DNA from: a phage
Length of the DNA stretch: 64,000 nt
Strand: one strand, 5' to 3'
Sequence record: PZ445430.1
Shown piece after piece: positions 4,731-54,236 of the stretch (positions are counted from its first letter, which is position 1; every line of letters begins with the position of its first letter). The notes under the pieces were generated by a model. It did no database searches. It saw only the letters and a program-made list of their open reading frames with translations, and was not told where the DNA came from. The position numbers and the translations under genes were made by a program.

Positions 4731-5498
4731 TTATTCAGCAGCCGCAGCTTTTGCATCCAGTTTAGCACGCTTAGCAGCACCATCATAGTCCTTAGCAACC
4801 AGACCACGACGAGACAGCATAGATTTAACACCGCGCTCAGACTTACCAGTTTTCTCAGCGATCTCAGCAACAGCCATGTTAGCCAGATCCAGACCTTCTA
4901 ACAGATCTTCACGGGTTTTAGCACTTGAAGTTTCCTGTACCGGCATAGCAGCGATACGACCTTCGCGAAGCAGGCTCAGAGCTTTACCACGGATCTGCTT
5001 AATATTGCGACCGAAGTGAGCAGCGATAGCTTCAATAGTAGCACCAGCAACAACCTGATTAACGAAATCAGTTTCTTCATCAGGAGTGAAGGAACGAACA
5101 GCGGCAGCTTTTTCAGTTGGCTTAACAGAAGCAGTCATTTCTAGACTCAGGATCTTACCCTGTACCTGCTTAGCACCGAACTGACCACCAGCTACAGCAG
5201 CAGCGATTTCAGCGTAAGTATACTGACCAGCATGAGCGTTCAGGAAATCAACCAGTTCAGCTTCCTGCTCAGGAGTCCACGGGGATTTCTGTACTTCGTT
5301 TGCTTTCTGTACTTCGAAACCTTCTTTACGCAGCTTAGAGCCAACAGAGCGAGCGGTAACGTCTTTACCGGTCTCGGTAGCCAGTTCAGCAGCGATAGCA
5401 GCTACTTGTTCTTGAGAGATTACAGTAACACCCAGAGCAGTGGCTTTTGCTTTCAGAGACTCGGTTACACCTTCTACGTTCCAGTTCAGTTTAGACAT
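4731..5498 (-). CDS. hypothetical protein, Ala/Lys-rich, possible DNA-binding replication factor
   Basis: 255 aa ORF with GGAGA RBS; low-complexity Ala-rich composition; location inside replication module. Confidence 0.5.
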   Translation of the reverse strand: MSKLNWNVEGVTESLKAKATALGVTVISQEQVAAIAAELATETGKDVTARSVGSKLRKEGFEVQKANEVQKSPWTPEQEAELVDFLNAHAGQYTYAEIAAAVAGGQFGAKQVQGKILSLEMTASVKPTEKAAAVRSFTPDEETDFVNQVVAGATIEAIAAHFGRNIKQIRGKALSLLREGRIAAMPVQETSSAKTREDLLEGLDLANMAVAEIAEKTGKSERGVKSMLSRRGLVAKDYDGAAKRAKLDAKAAAAE

Positions 5499-6273
5499 TA
5501 TTATTTTTCTCCAATAGTTCTTTAATCGACAGGATTTCTATCCCATTCGTTTCGGCTTTCTTATAAGATGAGGAAGAACGTTTTGATTCATCCTCACAGA
5601 TTAGGTATTTGACGTCTTTGGTAACGGACTTCTTAACCGTATATCCTAGACTCTCTAAATAGTTTGTTGCATCCGTTCGATTTGCAAAATCTTGCAAAGA
5701 TCCGGTAATACAGACCGTGATTCCATTTGGCTGAGCAACTAAATCATCTGTAATGATGATATCAGCTTTAGCACCTCGAATACCAGTTGAGAATTTCCAC
5801 GGTAATTCAATAACATCCTTGCCTTGCGGGGAATTTAGCCAGGTTTTGTAATTTTCTCCAGCCTTGCCGTCAGCCTTCACATCGTGGAAGCTAGTGCAAT
5901 TTTGGGACAGTTTCTTTGCTGCAACCTCTCCAATAAGAGGAATTCCTAAAGAACCGAGAACTGAACCAAAGTCAATGTCTCCGCGAACCTTAGTATTTAA
6001 CTCGCTAATCAACTTAGCGGCAACCTTGCTACCCACAGCTCCGACCAAATCTTCTTCGGTCAGGTAAAACAGTTCTGAGATTTTAGTCAGCTCCAGCTTC
6101 TCAATAGTTTTCGGGCCAAAGCCCTTTAACTTCATTTTTGTGCAGAAGTTCTCGATTAACTTACTTGATTGCGCTGGACAGTTGGACTTATTCCTACAGA
6201 ATAATTGCCCGTTGACAAGATCTAGCTTAGAACCACAAGAGGGACATTGTGTTGGAATTTCGATTTTCATCAA
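5491..6273 (-). CDS. ligB: NAD-dependent DNA ligase, C-terminal subunit (zinc finger, HhH, BRCT-like)
   Basis: 260 aa; Cys4 cluster CPSCGSKL...CRNKSNCP typical of the LigA zinc finger; GFGPKTIEKL helix-hairpin-helix; AAGGAAG RBS. Confidence 0.7.
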   Translation of the reverse strand: MMKIEIPTQCPSCGSKLDLVNGQLFCRNKSNCPAQSSKLIENFCTKMKLKGFGPKTIEKLELTKISELFYLTEEDLVGAVGSKVAAKLISELNTKVRGDIDFGSVLGSLGIPLIGEVAAKKLSQNCTSFHDVKADGKAGENYKTWLNSPQGKDVIELPWKFSTGIRGAKADIIITDDLVAQPNGITVCITGSLQDFANRTDATNYLESLGYTVKKSVTKDVKYLICEDESKRSSSSYKKAETNGIEILSIKELLEKNNNV

Positions 6274-6300
6274 ATTTCTTCCTTATCAATTTATATAAAT

Positions 6301-6329
6301 ATTATAGCAAGTATTTAAGCATTTAGCAA
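6301..6329 (-). promoter_or_regulatory. sigma70-type promoter inside the ligA-ligB spacer, drives ligB
   Basis: Minus strand reads TTGCTA, 17 bp, TATAAT. Confidence 0.55.
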
Positions 6330-6472
6330 CTACAATTTTAACTAACTTTGCTTACCCTCGCCATAACTTTCTATCCCTCAACTGAATGATAATAGTATAT
6401 ACCTAAGCGGCGAAAATGTCAATAACCACTTTATAATTCCGACATGGTAAACGGGTAGCAAAGGGTTACGAA

Positions 6473-7444
6473 TTAGTCGTATACTCGCTCTACTATACAA
6501 GGGATTACACCACCAGCACGAATCACTCGAATCTGGCTACCGATCTCTAAATCGAGAGCGTTAATATAGTCAACGTTATTAAGAGTTGCTTTAACGATTG
6601 TGGCATCATCAATAATCACCGGTTCGAAATAACCAACTGGAGTTACTTTACCAGAAGCCCCAACTTGCCATTCAACTTTAACAAGAGTGGTAATTTCGCC
6701 TTCTTCATCCTCTTTAATAGCAAATGCACCACGAGGAAATTTATTAGTCCAACCTTCACGGAAGAATTTATTGTTGTCATTAATACGAACAACTTTACCG
6801 TCCGTCGGAATCCATTTAAAGAAGGAACGAACATTAACAACTGTCAAGAAGTTCTCATTCTCTAGCCAAAGCATATCTTTTAAATAGGCTTCTGTAATAC
6901 CGACTGTTTCCGCTGAACACTGGATACCATATGCAACGAAGATTAAACCACCTTCACCAATACGTTGGATGAAATCATCGCTGTCTTTCAGGTTAATAGC
7001 ACCCGAAGCGTAGTTACGTTTGTTCTCTACTTCTTTAGTAATTAGAACTTCACCAGTGATTTGAGTTGGTACTTTTTGGGAAATAGTTTTGGGGATGTTC
7101 AGCATTTTAACATTATGCGTTACATCATTCCCTAGAATACCGTTACCACGAGTTAACGCTTGAACAAACTCACCATTAATATATAATAGAGAAATCGCAC
7201 AACCATCTAACTTATCAGTTTCAACCTGACCAAGTGGGTTGAATGGAGCTTTATCACCACGATCGTAATAGACTTTCTGCAAAGAATACATACGATACAA
7301 ATGAGGGATATCACCTTTCGGTCCGATTTCTTCCTCTAGTGGGAATCTTTTAATCAGACGATCATATTCTTCGTCAGAGATTAAAGACATACCTTGATAA
7401 TATGCTTCTTGACAGCGTTTAATAAATTCTTTTACATTAGTCAT
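6473..7444 (-). CDS. ligA: NAD-dependent DNA ligase, N-terminal adenylation/OB subunit
   Basis: 323 aa; KxDG adenylation motif in VETDKLDGCAISLLY; N-terminal YYxxxxxLISDEEYD typical of the NAD-binding Ia domain. Confidence 0.75.
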   Translation of the reverse strand: MTNVKEFIKRCQEAYYQGMSLISDEEYDRLIKRFPLEEEIGPKGDIPHLYRMYSLQKVYYDRGDKAPFNPLGQVETDKLDGCAISLLYINGEFVQALTRGNGILGNDVTHNVKMLNIPKTISQKVPTQITGEVLITKEVENKRNYASGAINLKDSDDFIQRIGEGGLIFVAYGIQCSAETVGITEAYLKDMLWLENENFLTVVNVRSFFKWIPTDGKVVRINDNNKFFREGWTNKFPRGAFAIKEDEEGEITTLVKVEWQVGASGKVTPVGYFEPVIIDDATIVKATLNNVDYINALDLEIGSQIRVIRAGGVIPCIVERVYD

Positions 7445-7531
7445 TTATTTATATCTCTCATCAATTTATATAAATATTGTATAACAAAACTGAGTCGAAA
7501 GCAAGTACATTTATAAAGAAAAAGCCAAGAA

Positions 7532-7840
7532 CTAGGCATTCTTGGCTTTGAGTTCTTCAGCTCGTTTCTGTACTTCATGCAATACCTCGGATTCACTGAG
7601 GATTTGCGTAAAAGCGTAAAATAGCTGTGATGTAGTTTCTAGGGTATAAGGAAAAGAGAAGCCGGATTTCGTTGGAAACCACTCTCCAGTAATATCTTGG
7701 AGCCAGTAACGAATTCCCATGTATAGATTCCCACGAAATTCAGATACGGTTAGTCTTACTTGTTCCCCCTCCTTCTCCCAAAGCATGATGGACTGGTCGT
7801 CAACGTGTCCTTCATAGTTTTGATTTACCTGATCGCTCAT
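7532..7840 (-). CDS. hypothetical protein
   Basis: 102 aa ORF in minus-strand gene array; no recognisable motif. Confidence 0.45.
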   Translation of the reverse strand: MSDQVNQNYEGHVDDQSIMLWEKEGEQVRLTVSEFRGNLYMGIRYWLQDITGEWFPTKSGFSFPYTLETTSQLFYAFTQILSESEVLHEVQKRAEELKAKNA

Positions 7841-9759: not shown

Positions 9760-10332
9760 TTATAAAGAAGCTGCTTTCAGCTTGTTATACCTATAAAGAA
9801 TGGCCGGGGCGCTTTTAAATCCAAGCACTCTAGCAGTTTTTCTCCAAGAATTGGTTTTCTGATACGTAGATTCTATTAACTCTAAGGTTAGAGTATCGCC
9901 GGAGGGAATAACCACATTATATTTAAACATAGCCCTGCACCTATAAGATGCAGCCGCTTTAGTTATGCCCATACTTTCTAATTTCTTAATTTCTGCTAGG
10001 AAATCTGGATGTTCTCTCCAATTTTTATTATGAAATTTTATTGCATTAGCTTTGTAGGTTAATACCTGCAAGTTAACTAATCTAGGATCTAACTTATCAT
10101 CATTTATATGGTCTACTACCAATTCTGATTCTAATCCAGGAAGTAGCCCAAAACAATAAGCTACTAACCTATGCACCCTCACATTTATAGGAGAGCCATC
10201 CTTCATTAAATTAACTTGTAAGTACCCCGCAGTATTTTGACCCGGAGCAAGAAATTTGTTGGAGAGAAAAGAATACACCTCTCCATTTTCATTCACTGCA
10301 TAGTCAGGAAATTCGGGAATTCTTATAAACAT
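9760..10332 (-). CDS. HNH homing endonuclease
   Basis: 190 aa; HNH core HRLVAYCFG...VVDHINDDKLDPRLVNLQVLTYKANA; free-standing between replication genes. Confidence 0.7.
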   Translation of the reverse strand: MFIRIPEFPDYAVNENGEVYSFLSNKFLAPGQNTAGYLQVNLMKDGSPINVRVHRLVAYCFGLLPGLESELVVDHINDDKLDPRLVNLQVLTYKANAIKFHNKNWREHPDFLAEIKKLESMGITKAAASYRCRAMFKYNVVIPSGDTLTLELIESTYQKTNSWRKTARVLGFKSAPAILYRYNKLKAASL

Positions 10333-38183: not shown

Positions 38184-38213
38184 TTGCTTTTTACTTAAGA
38201 TTTCTGCTATAAT
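38184..38213 (+). promoter_or_regulatory. sigma70-type promoter
   Basis: TTGCTT, 18 bp, TATAAT. Confidence 0.5.
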
Positions 38214-38242
38214 AGTTATATAAGTTGATGAGAGGAATCAGA

Positions 38243-42273: not shown

Positions 42274-42294
42274 TGCTTAATTTCTTGTTATAAT
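42266..42294 (+). promoter_or_regulatory. sigma70-type promoter heading a 260 nt leader and the tRNA-Ala pair
   Basis: TTGCTT, 17 bp, TATAAT; leader begins with hairpin GATGAGGAGAAATCCTCATC. Confidence 0.55.
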
Positions 42295-42557
42295 ATTTAT
42301 ATAAATCGATGAGGAGAAATCCTCATCAAAGTTCACTAAGGTATTAGCTCGACCTAGGACTGGCTGCCAACAAGCACAGTTGCAATTAGACCCCTAATGG
42401 CGGGGGGATACTTTGCAATAAGTTCTAGATTAGTCCACTAGATTCAGCGGCAACTGAATAGTGTATCGGGTTTGTGAAGAGCGGTTATCCTCTACTGGCT
42501 AATGTCTGAGGGTAATACGCACACCGAGCTAATAGCCTTAGTAAACTTAAAGATTTT

Positions 42558-44844: not shown

Positions 44845-44874
44845 ATTTGCCTTCTCTCTTATTTCTTGTTATAA
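44845..44874 (+). promoter_or_regulatory. sigma70-type promoter
   Basis: TTGCCT, 18 bp, TATAAT. Confidence 0.5.
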
Positions 44875-44905
44875 TATTTATATAAATTAATGAGAGGGAA
44901 ACCAA

Positions 44906-47303: not shown

Positions 47304-47332
47304 TTGCTAAAACCCTCTTTTCTTGATATAAT
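47304..47332 (+). promoter_or_regulatory. sigma70-type promoter
   Basis: TTGCTA, 17 bp, TATAAT; flanked by inverted repeat AACCCTCT / AGAGGGCTT. Confidence 0.6.
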
Positions 47333-47362
47333 ATTTATATAAATTGATGAGAGGGCTTTGAA

Positions 47363-54174: not shown

Positions 54175-54203
54175 TTGACTTTCCGCTGAAATTTTTATAT
54201 AAT
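54175..54203 (+). promoter_or_regulatory. sigma70-type promoter
   Basis: TTGACT, 17 bp, TATAAT. Confidence 0.6.
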
Positions 54204-54236
54204 ATTTGTATAAATTGAATCAGAGGAGTTTCACAA

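What the first reader, a model, noticed from the sequence alone, without database searches (positions are those of the whole stretch)
5491..7444. NAD-dependent DNA ligase encoded as two separate genes with an internal promoter
The adenylation/OB half (6473-7444) and the zinc-finger/HhH/BRCT half (5491-6273) are separate ORFs divided by 200 bp of AT-rich non-coding DNA that contains its own minus-strand promoter. Bacterial LigA is a single polypeptide, so this looks like a genuinely split enzyme, possibly the scar of an ancient insertion.
Basis: partly seen in the sequence, partly recalled or inferred. Interest (0 to 1): 0.45.

Follow-up and report, generated by a model that had tools for sequence, protein, structure and literature searches.

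The report
Known split DNA ligase of T5-like phages
The window is a T5-like phage whose NAD-dependent DNA ligase really is encoded as two adjacent genes with promoters between them, but this has been described since the T5 genome paper of 2005 and is routinely annotated, so it is not new.

Summary
The window is 100% identical to Escherichia phage SuperGirl (Bas29), a T5-like phage. ligA (6473-7444, minus strand) encodes domain Ia, the adenylation domain and the OB fold. ligB (5491-6270, minus strand) encodes the zinc finger, HhH and BRCT domains; its start is ATG 6270, not TTG 6273. The 202-nt, 32% GC spacer has 5-7 stop codons in every frame and no intron-like RNA. It carries two tandem sigma-70 promoters, which the T5 record labels P-K28b and P-K28a. 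The break maps between E. coli LigA residues D398 and T399, in the OB/zinc-finger linker, and no sequence is missing. Both halves are under strong purifying selection (dN/dS 0.04 and 0.08).

None of this is new. [quoted passage not shown]

Two small additions. Every split relative examined breaks at the same position, and the short spacers examined each carry a promoter or are annotated with one. Two environmental T5-like contigs carry an unsplit ~560-aa ligase at the syntenic locus, which suggests the gene split in place. No homing endonuclease, intron or intein was detected.

The parts
7521..7549 (-). Terminator-like hairpin followed by a T-run, upstream of the ligA promoter; ends the preceding transcription unit
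   Evidence: 12-pair stem, T-rich tail. This is a pattern match only.
7476..7504 (-). ligA promoter: TTGCTT, 17 nt, TACAAT, followed by the conserved leader ATATTTATATAAATTGAT (7477..7460)
   Evidence: Sequence read. The T5 record annotates a promoter at the homologous position. It is below the generic scan's threshold because the first hexamer matches only 3 of 6.
6473..7444 (-). [quoted passage not shown] Contains domain Ia (AYY...SDEEYD), a nucleotidyltransferase domain with motif I K78-L-D-G, and the OB fold
   Evidence: It is 96% identical to T5 ligA, with dN/dS 0.043 against T5.
6271..6472 (-). Non-coding spacer, 202 nt, 32% GC, with stop codons in all three frames and no significant RNA structure
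   Evidence: stops, GC; 97.5% identical to T5; no Rfam match in the spacer; folding z-score -0.74
6394..6422 (-). Promoter equivalent to T5 P-K28b: TTGACA, 17 nt, TATACT (11 of 12)
   Evidence: annotated in T5 and phage S114; hexamers conserved in Klebsiella and Pectobacterium phages
6301..6329 (-). Promoter equivalent to T5 P-K28a: TTGCTA, 17 nt, TATAAT with an extended TG (10 of 12), followed by the conserved leader at 6302..6285
6278..6284 (-). Shine-Dalgarno sequence AAGGAAG, 7 nt upstream of the ligB ATG
   Evidence: sequence read
5491..6270 (-). ligB: NAD-dependent DNA ligase subunit B (259 aa). Contains a zinc finger (C9, C12, C25, C31), the HhH region and a BRCT domain. Its last 8 nt overlap the start of the D5 gene (4731-5498)
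   Evidence: It is 96.5% identical to T5 ligB, with dN/dS 0.076.

Best explanation
This is the two-subunit NAD+-dependent DNA ligase (LigA/LigB) typical of T5-like phages (Demerecviridae).

Shown here: the ancestral single-chain LigA is broken in the short linker between the OB fold and the zinc finger. Subunit A keeps everything needed for step 1, reaction with NAD+ to form the Lys-AMP intermediate: domain Ia, the nucleotidyltransferase domain with the KxDG lysine, and the OB fold. Subunit B keeps the DNA-clamping and accessory modules: zinc finger, HhH and BRCT.

Inferred: the two proteins associate non-covalently on nicked DNA and rebuild the LigA clamp, so that nick adenylylation and sealing can proceed.

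The gap between the genes is a transcription-unit boundary. It carries two tandem strong early promoters plus a good ribosome-binding site. These drive ligB and, by inference, the translationally overlapping D5 gene, which in turn is followed by the DnaB-like helicase gene. ligA has its own promoter, and no terminator was detected between it and ligB. By inference, B is therefore made from more transcripts than A.

Evolutionary inference: a compact unsplit phage LigA of about 560 aa was broken in place, by acquiring a stop codon, a promoter and a start codon within the linker. The gap later became a site where small genes come and go in some lineages.
For: Identity: the window is 100% identical to phage SuperGirl, and 459 phage records match at the DNA level, most of them annotating subunits A and B.

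Domain content and break point: Pfam hits. The fused A+B sequence aligns to E. coli LigA 2owo residues 284-666 in one stretch, with A D323 opposite D398 and B M1 opposite T399. K78 aligns with the catalytic K115.

Not an artefact: 5-7 stops per frame in the spacer, and dN/dS of 0.043 and 0.076. The break column is the same, to within about three residues, in nine cultured lineages and in eight environmental T5-like contigs.

Complex formation: PDB 9hu3/9i5i contains both chains of the Providencia phage PR1/PSTCR5 homologue (E=7e-105 and 1e-79).

A-type fragment alone can adenylate: a LigN truncation comprising Ia, adenylation and OB domains formed enzyme-AMP as efficiently as the full-length enzyme. 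That experiment was explicitly motivated by the split T5 ligase (PMC1684257).

Promoters. The spacer is 97.5% identical to T5 while synonymous sites in the flanking genes differ by 21-39%. Six environmental short spacers (60-100 nt) each hold one near-consensus promoter.

Unsplit orthologues: P0073 (568 aa) and P0036 (557 aa) lie between homologues of D2, D3 and the PC4-like gene on one side and D5 (with DnaB in L037) on the other.
Against: No biochemical data for this phage or for T5 itself were found in the searchable literature. I could not read the paper behind 9hu3, so heterodimer stoichiometry, whether DNA is bound and whether the complex is active are all inferred. The promoter assignments rest on sequence and on GenBank annotation, and I could not retrieve the primary promoter papers. 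The direction of evolution rests on outgroup logic and on an unbootstrapped NJ tree in which two unsplit forms nest among split ones.
Confidence: 0.9

Rival explanations
1. Sequencing or assembly frameshift, or a decaying pseudogene: the real gene is one ORF.
For: None beyond the general rule that bacterial LigA is a single chain.
Against: The spacer has 5-7 stops in each frame, and ligB is in a different frame from ligA. The same layout occurs in more than 400 independently sequenced genomes. dN/dS is 0.04 and 0.08. No LigA residues are missing at the junction. A relative was solved as two chains.
Confidence: 0.01
2. The two halves are rejoined into one polypeptide or one mRNA, by a self-splicing intron, a split intein or translational bypass across the spacer.
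For: Phage genes are sometimes interrupted by group I introns, inteins or, as in T4 gene 60, a bypassed segment (from general knowledge).
Against: There is no Rfam match in the spacer at E<=1. Spacer folding is unremarkable (z=-0.74). No intein sequence is present, since A ends at the OB fold and B starts 8 residues before the first zinc-finger cysteine (C9), with no extra residues. ligB has its own promoters, Shine-Dalgarno sequence and ATG. In relatives the spacer ranges from about 60 nt to about 1 kb and can contain unrelated genes. The PDB entry has separate chains A and B.
Confidence: 0.02
3. The halves have partly independent jobs. Subunit B (zinc finger, HhH, BRCT), expressed from its own strong promoters with D5, would act mainly as a DNA-binding or recruiting factor on its own. 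Subunit A would be a low-activity or differently targeted adenylyltransferase, so ligation by an A-B complex would not be the whole story.
For: B has two dedicated promoters and a better ribosome-binding site than A, and is translationally coupled to the replication and late-transcription factor D5. In some Vibrio phages A and B are separated by about 1 kb containing other genes.
Against: A and B co-occur and stay adjacent in every T5-like genome examined. They were solved together. Unsplit orthologues show the domains function as one enzyme in close relatives.
Confidence: 0.07
4. Opposite evolutionary direction: the split state is ancestral for the compact phage clade, and the ~560-aa unsplit forms are secondary re-fusions produced by deleting a short spacer.
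For: In the NJ tree two unsplit forms (P0036, P0043) nest among split forms. Some spacers are only about 60 nt, so one small deletion could fuse the genes.
Against: All outgroups (bacterial LigA, jumbo-phage and Acinetobacter-phage ligases) are unsplit. Most compact unsplit forms are basal in the tree. The tree has no support values.
Confidence: 0.2

Closest known systems
Bacteriophage T5 ligA/ligB (T5.116/T5.117; AAS77162/AAS77163; AAU05253/AAU05254), the split NAD+-dependent DNA ligase reported with the T5 genome (Wang et al. 2005, Virology 332:45, as cited in PMC1684257)
   Same: Orthologous genes, 96% and 96.5% amino-acid identity. Same break point and same 202-nt spacer (97.5% identical) with promoters P-K28b and P-K28a. 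Same neighbours, D5 and D6/DnaB.
   Different: Nothing of substance. SuperGirl belongs to Epseptimavirus rather than Tequintavirus.
PDB 9hu3 / 9i5i: 'DNA ligase (NAD(+))' chain A plus 'DNA ligase subunit B' chain B, identical to Providencia phage vB_PreS_PR1 / PSTCR5 (Priunavirus, Demerecviridae)
   Same: Same two-subunit architecture. HMMER E-values are 7e-105 (A) and 1e-79 (B), and the break is in the same alignment column.
   Different: The sequences have diverged substantially; a Pectobacterium phage at a similar position in the tree shares 61% (A) and 58% (B) identity with this window. The PR1 spacer is annotated with a terminator and one promoter. I could not find or read the associated publication.
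Single-chain bacterial LigA (E. coli LigA, PDB 2owo)
   Same: Same six modules in the same order: Ia, NTase (KxDG), OB, four-Cys zinc finger, HhH, BRCT. The alignment is continuous across the junction.
   Different: E. coli LigA is one 671-aa polypeptide. The phage enzyme is more compact (582 aa in total) and is cut between the residues equivalent to D398 and T399.
Homing-endonuclease-generated 'genes in pieces', such as the Aeromonas phage Aeh1 nrdA split by mobE (Friedrich et al. 2007, recalled from memory)
   Same: An essential phage enzyme encoded as two adjacent genes whose products reassemble.
   Different: Here no endonuclease gene or remnant lies in the gap. The gap holds promoters. 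An HNH endonuclease does exist about 3.3 kb away, at 9760-10332, but it is not associated with the ligase.

Membership tests
NAD+-dependent DNA ligase (LigA) family | Nucleotidyltransferase domain with the motif I lysine (KxDG) | tested here: met
   K78-L-D-G aligns with E. coli K115-L-D-G. Pfam DNA_ligase_aden E=1.8e-23. Invariant in all relatives examined.
NAD+-dependent DNA ligase (LigA) family | N-terminal domain Ia, which confers NAD+ specificity (the Y22/H23/D32/Y35/D36 region of E. coli LigA, from knowledge of Sriskanda & Shuman 2002) | tested here: met
   The N-terminal 'QEAYYQG..ISDEEYDRL' aligns with the Ia region of unsplit phage ligases and with Thermus LigA 'ISDAEYDRL'. This is sequence-level evidence only; cofactor use was not assayed.
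NAD+-dependent DNA ligase (LigA) family | OB fold following the NTase domain | tested here: met
   Pfam DNA_ligase_OB E=1.2e-21, residues 252-321 of A.
NAD+-dependent DNA ligase (LigA) family | Four-cysteine zinc finger, HhH domain and BRCT domain C-terminal to the OB fold | tested here: met
   C9, C12, C25 and C31 of B align with the E. coli zinc-finger region. The HhH region aligns with 2owo, although the Pfam HHH_2 match is below its cut-off (21.6 against 27 bits). BRCT is above its cut-off (35.6 against 21.3 bits).
NAD+-dependent DNA ligase (LigA) family | All modules on one polypeptide, the canonical cellular form | tested here: not met
   There are two ORFs separated by 202 nt with stops in all frames. 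This is the defining difference of the T5-type variant.
T5-type two-subunit ligase (LigA/LigB of Demerecviridae) | Subunit A is Ia+NTase+OB and subunit B is Zn+HhH+BRCT; adjacent same-strand genes upstream of D5 and the DnaB-like helicase | tested here: met
T5-type two-subunit ligase (LigA/LigB of Demerecviridae) | Orthology to T5 ligA and ligB | tested here: met
   96.0% and 96.5% amino-acid identity over the full length.
T5-type two-subunit ligase (LigA/LigB of Demerecviridae) | The A and B proteins form an active complex | not testable with these tools
   Only indirect evidence: both chains of a relative are present in PDB 9hu3/9i5i.
Intron- or intein-interrupted gene | A structured self-splicing RNA, or in-frame intein blocks, between the two halves | tested here: not met
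   No Rfam match in the spacer. Folding z-score is -0.74. The spacer is non-coding with stops in all frames.
Homing-endonuclease-split gene ('genes in pieces') | An endonuclease gene, or a remnant of one, in the gap | tested here: not met
   No ORF of 40 codons or more lies within the spacer on the coding strand. The intervening ORFs of Vibrio relatives have no HNH, GIY-YIG or LAGLIDADG hits and leave no tblastn trace in this window's spacer.

The most novel reading that the evidence does not exclude
The break may not be a neutral scar. It may have been fixed because it places a strong promoter at the start of a ligB-D5-helicase transcription unit. That would uncouple the amount and timing of the DNA-binding subunit B from the catalytic subunit A, and possibly give B a second, ligase-independent role at T5's nicks or replisome. 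Split and unsplit orthologues coexist at the same locus in environmental T5-like phages, which would be a natural experiment for testing why a phage benefits from breaking an essential enzyme in two.
Probability: 0.15. Interest if true: 0.4.

Novelty: already known. Interest (0 to 1): 0.12.

Why it matters
The finding itself matters little. The split T5 ligase has been in the literature and in GenBank since 2005, and a homologous heterodimer has been solved. Two minor points might interest phage or ligase specialists. First, a promoter was found or is annotated in every short spacer examined, across cultured and environmental T5-like phages. Second, unsplit ~560-aa orthologues survive at the syntenic locus, which lets the fission event be dated and tested experimentally, for example with fused against split constructs.

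Tried and rejected
1. Frameshift or pseudogene: rejected on stops in all frames, conservation and dN/dS.

2. Intron, intein or bypass: rejected.

3. Spacer as a degraded remnant of the genes that sit between A and B in Vibrio phages: tblastn of those ORFs against the window gave only chance-level hits, none in the spacer. Those ORFs have no mobile-element domains. The 73-aa JSF12 ORF annotated 'DNA ligase' has no detectable ligase similarity.

4. The 8-codon mini-ORF in the spacer (6363..6337) as a real gene: not conserved in the Klebsiella or Pectobacterium phages, so probably not a gene.

5. AlphaFold2 single-sequence model of ligB: mean pLDDT 33.8, unusable. No fold search was run on it.

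6. Literature searches for the 9hu3/9i5i paper, for 'split/heterodimeric DNA ligase' and for the P-K28 promoter names returned nothing relevant beyond PMC1684257 and PMC3632103.

7. A viral-contig scan with P0036 found nothing.

8. The generic promoter scan over the region is not enriched relative to shuffles, so it is not used as statistical evidence.
Full report
**What the window is.** Region 5300-7700 is 100% identical to Escherichia phage SuperGirl (Bas29, MZ501105; Epseptimavirus, Demerecviridae). It matches 459 phage records by megablast, 429 of them over at least 80% of its length. [quoted passage not shown] The gene order around it is that of T5: D2, D3, small genes, ligA, ligB, D5, D6/DnaB, primase.

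**Checking the observation.** The ORF listing gives 6473-7444(-) at 323 aa and 5491-6273(-) at 260 aa from a TTG.
- The next codon of the second ORF is ATG (6270), preceded by AAGGAAG. This is the start used in the T5 and SuperGirl records, so ligB is 5491-6270, 259 aa.
- Pfam puts the adenylation domain (E=1.8e-23) and OB domain (E=1.2e-21) in A. It puts BRCT (E=1.1e-8) and a sub-threshold HhH match in B.
- The spacer 6271-6472 is 202 nt and 32% GC, against 38% and 41% in the two genes. It has 5-7 stop codons in each frame, and ligB lies in a different frame from ligA.

**Where the break lies.** I joined A and B artificially and searched the PDB. The fusion aligns to E. coli LigA (2owo) as one stretch, query 214-576 against residues 284-666.
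- A D323 lies opposite D398 and B M1 opposite T399, ten residues before the first zinc-finger cysteine.
- K78 of A lies opposite the catalytic K115.
- By the published 2OWO domain limits (from my own knowledge: OB 317-404, Zn 405-432), the cut is in the OB/zinc-finger linker and no residues are missing.
- In a MAFFT alignment of nine split lineages and two unsplit phage ligases, the break falls in the same place to within about three residues. The lineages are Escherichia, T5, Klebsiella, Pectobacterium, Providencia, Proteus and three Vibrio phages. Motif I and the domain Ia signature are conserved throughout.

**Both halves are functional genes.** Against T5, dN/dS is 0.043 for ligA (pS 0.39) and 0.076 for ligB (pS 0.21).

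**What is in the spacer.** The consensus scan finds TTGACA-17-TATACT (6422..6394, 11 of 12) and TTGCTA-17-TATAAT (6329..6301, 10 of 12, with an extended TG) on the coding strand. It finds no terminator inside the spacer.
- The T5 record annotates exactly these as 'promoter P-K 28b' and 'P-K 28a', and phage S114 does the same. From memory, those names come from the Bujard laboratory's functional selection of T5 promoters in the 1980s. I could not retrieve that paper.
- The hexamers and the initially transcribed sequences are conserved in Klebsiella (Sugarlandvirus) and Pectobacterium (Hongcheonvirus) phages, while the DNA around them diverges.
- The second promoter belongs to a cassette present seven times in the window, where 0.01 copies are expected by chance. 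The cassette is an A-rich tract, TTGCTx, 17 nt, TATAAT, then ATTTATATAAATTGATGAGAGG, a Shine-Dalgarno sequence and ATG. One copy is the ligA promoter itself.
- The spacer is 97.5% identical to T5, and the last ~155 nt are identical. Synonymous sites in the flanking genes differ by 21-39%, so the spacer is under constraint.
- Rfam finds nothing in the spacer at E<=1, and its predicted folding is ordinary (z=-0.74). There is no intron signature, and there is no coding capacity for an intein.

**Already known.**
- The T5 genome record (AY543070) names ligA (T5.116) and ligB (T5.117).
[quoted passage not shown] 2005. It also shows that a LigN truncation with just the Ia, adenylation and OB domains forms enzyme-adenylate as efficiently as the full-length enzyme.
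- The PDB holds 9hu3 and 9i5i, with chain A 'DNA ligase (NAD(+))' and chain B 'DNA ligase subunit B'. They match this window's halves at E=7e-105 and 1e-79. The B chain is 100% identical to Providencia phages PR1 and PSTCR5.
- I found no paper for those PDB entries in the library.

**How it most likely works.**
- Shown: the domain split, the promoters as conserved sequence features, purifying selection, and co-occurrence of the two genes.
- Inferred from established LigA mechanism and the LigN truncation: A reacts with NAD+ to form Lys78-AMP. B supplies the zinc-finger and HhH DNA clamp and the BRCT module. The two associate on nicked DNA to complete AMP transfer and sealing.
- Inferred from the sequence layout: ligA has its own promoter (7504..7476). 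No terminator was detected before ligB. ligB has two further promoters and a stronger ribosome-binding site, and its stop codon overlaps the D5 start. So the gap marks the start of a ligB-D5 transcription unit, which the DnaB-like helicase gene follows, and B is probably made in excess of A.

**Testing the 'ancient insertion' idea.** What lies between A and B varies among relatives.
- About 190-200 nt of non-coding DNA in the T5-like, Klebsiella, Pectobacterium and Providencia phages.
- A small ORF in Proteus PM135.
- One or two genes in Vibrio phages: a DprA-like gene plus unrelated small ORFs. These have no mobile-element domains and leave no trace in this spacer.
- IMG/VR contigs with the T5 gene order are all split at the same point. 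Their spacers are either 60-100 nt holding a single near-consensus promoter directly after the ligA stop, or 0.7-1 kb of inserted DNA.

A search of 1.84 billion representative proteins with the A half returned 129 hits at E<=1e-30.
- Fifty-eight of the 150 listed hits fit the A-only pattern: they cover nearly all of A and stop within 20 aa of where A ends. Most of these are 304-339 aa at 38-64% identity.
- At 36-46% identity there are also 555-586-aa proteins that read straight through the junction with the same compact six-module layout.
- Two of these (P0073 and P0036) lie on contigs between homologues of D2, D3 and the PC4-like gene on one side and D5 on the other, with DnaB as well in L037. 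That is the orthologous locus.
- An NJ tree without support values puts the compact unsplit forms mostly at the base of the clade that contains all the split forms, but two nest inside it.

The simplest reading is a fission in place, of a compact phage LigA, that created a promoter-bearing intergenic gap. The gap was later used as a landing site for small genes. The number of fission or re-fusion events remains open. I found no evidence for a homing endonuclease, intron or intein as the cause.

**Verdict.** Novelty: already known. Interest is low. The conserved promoter in the gap and the unsplit syntenic orthologues are modest additions.

Noticed in passing
window 6285-6302(-), 7460-7477(-), 38212-38229(+), 42293-42310(+), 44874-44891(+), 47331-47348(+), 54202-54219(+): Seven copies of a promoter-plus-leader cassette, where 0.01 are expected by chance. 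The cassette is an A-rich tract, TTGCTx, 17 nt, TATAAT, then ATTTATATAAATTGATGAGAGG, a Shine-Dalgarno sequence and ATG. In six of the seven copies an ATG follows within about 20 nt; at 42293 none is visible within the 45 nt shown. It looks like the phage's standard strong early-promoter module, including a conserved initially transcribed region.
   Followed up: partly
window 6271-6472: The non-coding ligA-ligB spacer is 97.5% identical to T5, and all 5 differences lie in the first ~50 nt. Synonymous sites in the flanking genes differ by 39% (ligA) and 21% (ligB). About 155 nt of non-coding DNA is therefore more constrained than the coding wobble positions.
   Followed up: partly
window 6337-6363(-) and 7442-7462(-): Two mini-ORFs in promoter leaders. 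An 8-codon MARVSKVS follows a GAGGGA Shine-Dalgarno-like sequence downstream of P-K28b, and is not conserved in the Klebsiella or Pectobacterium phages. A 6-codon MRDINK has a stop codon that overlaps the ligA ATG, and is annotated as CDS bas29_0039 in the SuperGirl record. ligA itself lacks a well-placed Shine-Dalgarno sequence, so coupling to the mini-ORF is conceivable.
   Followed up: partly
window 9760-10332(-): An HNH homing endonuclease (Pfam HNH_3 E=1.4e-7, plus NUMOD4) sits just upstream of the D2 helicase-like gene. The T5 record has only a promoter at the corresponding place. Mobile endonucleases are therefore active in this replication-gene cluster, but not at the ligase junction.
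   Followed up: partly
window 7532-7840(-): The 102-aa protein immediately upstream of ligA is a PC4/p15-like domain protein (Pfam PC4 E=1.5e-8, above the cut-off); PC4 is known as a single-stranded-DNA-binding fold. It is annotated only as hypothetical in the phage records, and is conserved next to the ligase in all environmental T5-like contigs examined.
   Followed up: partly
L006 3456-4288, L009 3469-4361, L008 3470-4461, L007 3457-3917; L005 1950-2513: In Vibrio Demerecviridae one or two genes lie between ligA and ligB. One is a DprA-like gene (about 190 aa, truncated to 75 aa in PVo5); the others are lineage-specific small ORFs. In Pectobacterium phage DU_PP_V the DprA-like gene is instead immediately upstream of ligA. 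The 73-aa JSF12 ORF annotated 'DNA ligase' has no detectable ligase similarity.
   Followed up: partly
L036 2151-3857 and L037 6001-7674: Environmental T5-like contigs (Logan SRR12825405; JGI 3300051786) carry an unsplit, compact LigA (568 and 557 aa) at the position where cultured T5-like phages have ligA plus ligB, flanked by homologues of D2, D3, the PC4-like gene and D5, plus DnaB in L037.
   Followed up: yes
window 4731-5498(-): The D5 protein is annotated in T5 as a DNA-binding factor needed for replication and late transcription. It gives several weak helix-turn-helix hits, including Sigma70_r4_2 at E=9.6e-6, essentially at that family's cut-off. Its start codon overlaps the end of ligB.
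   Followed up: no
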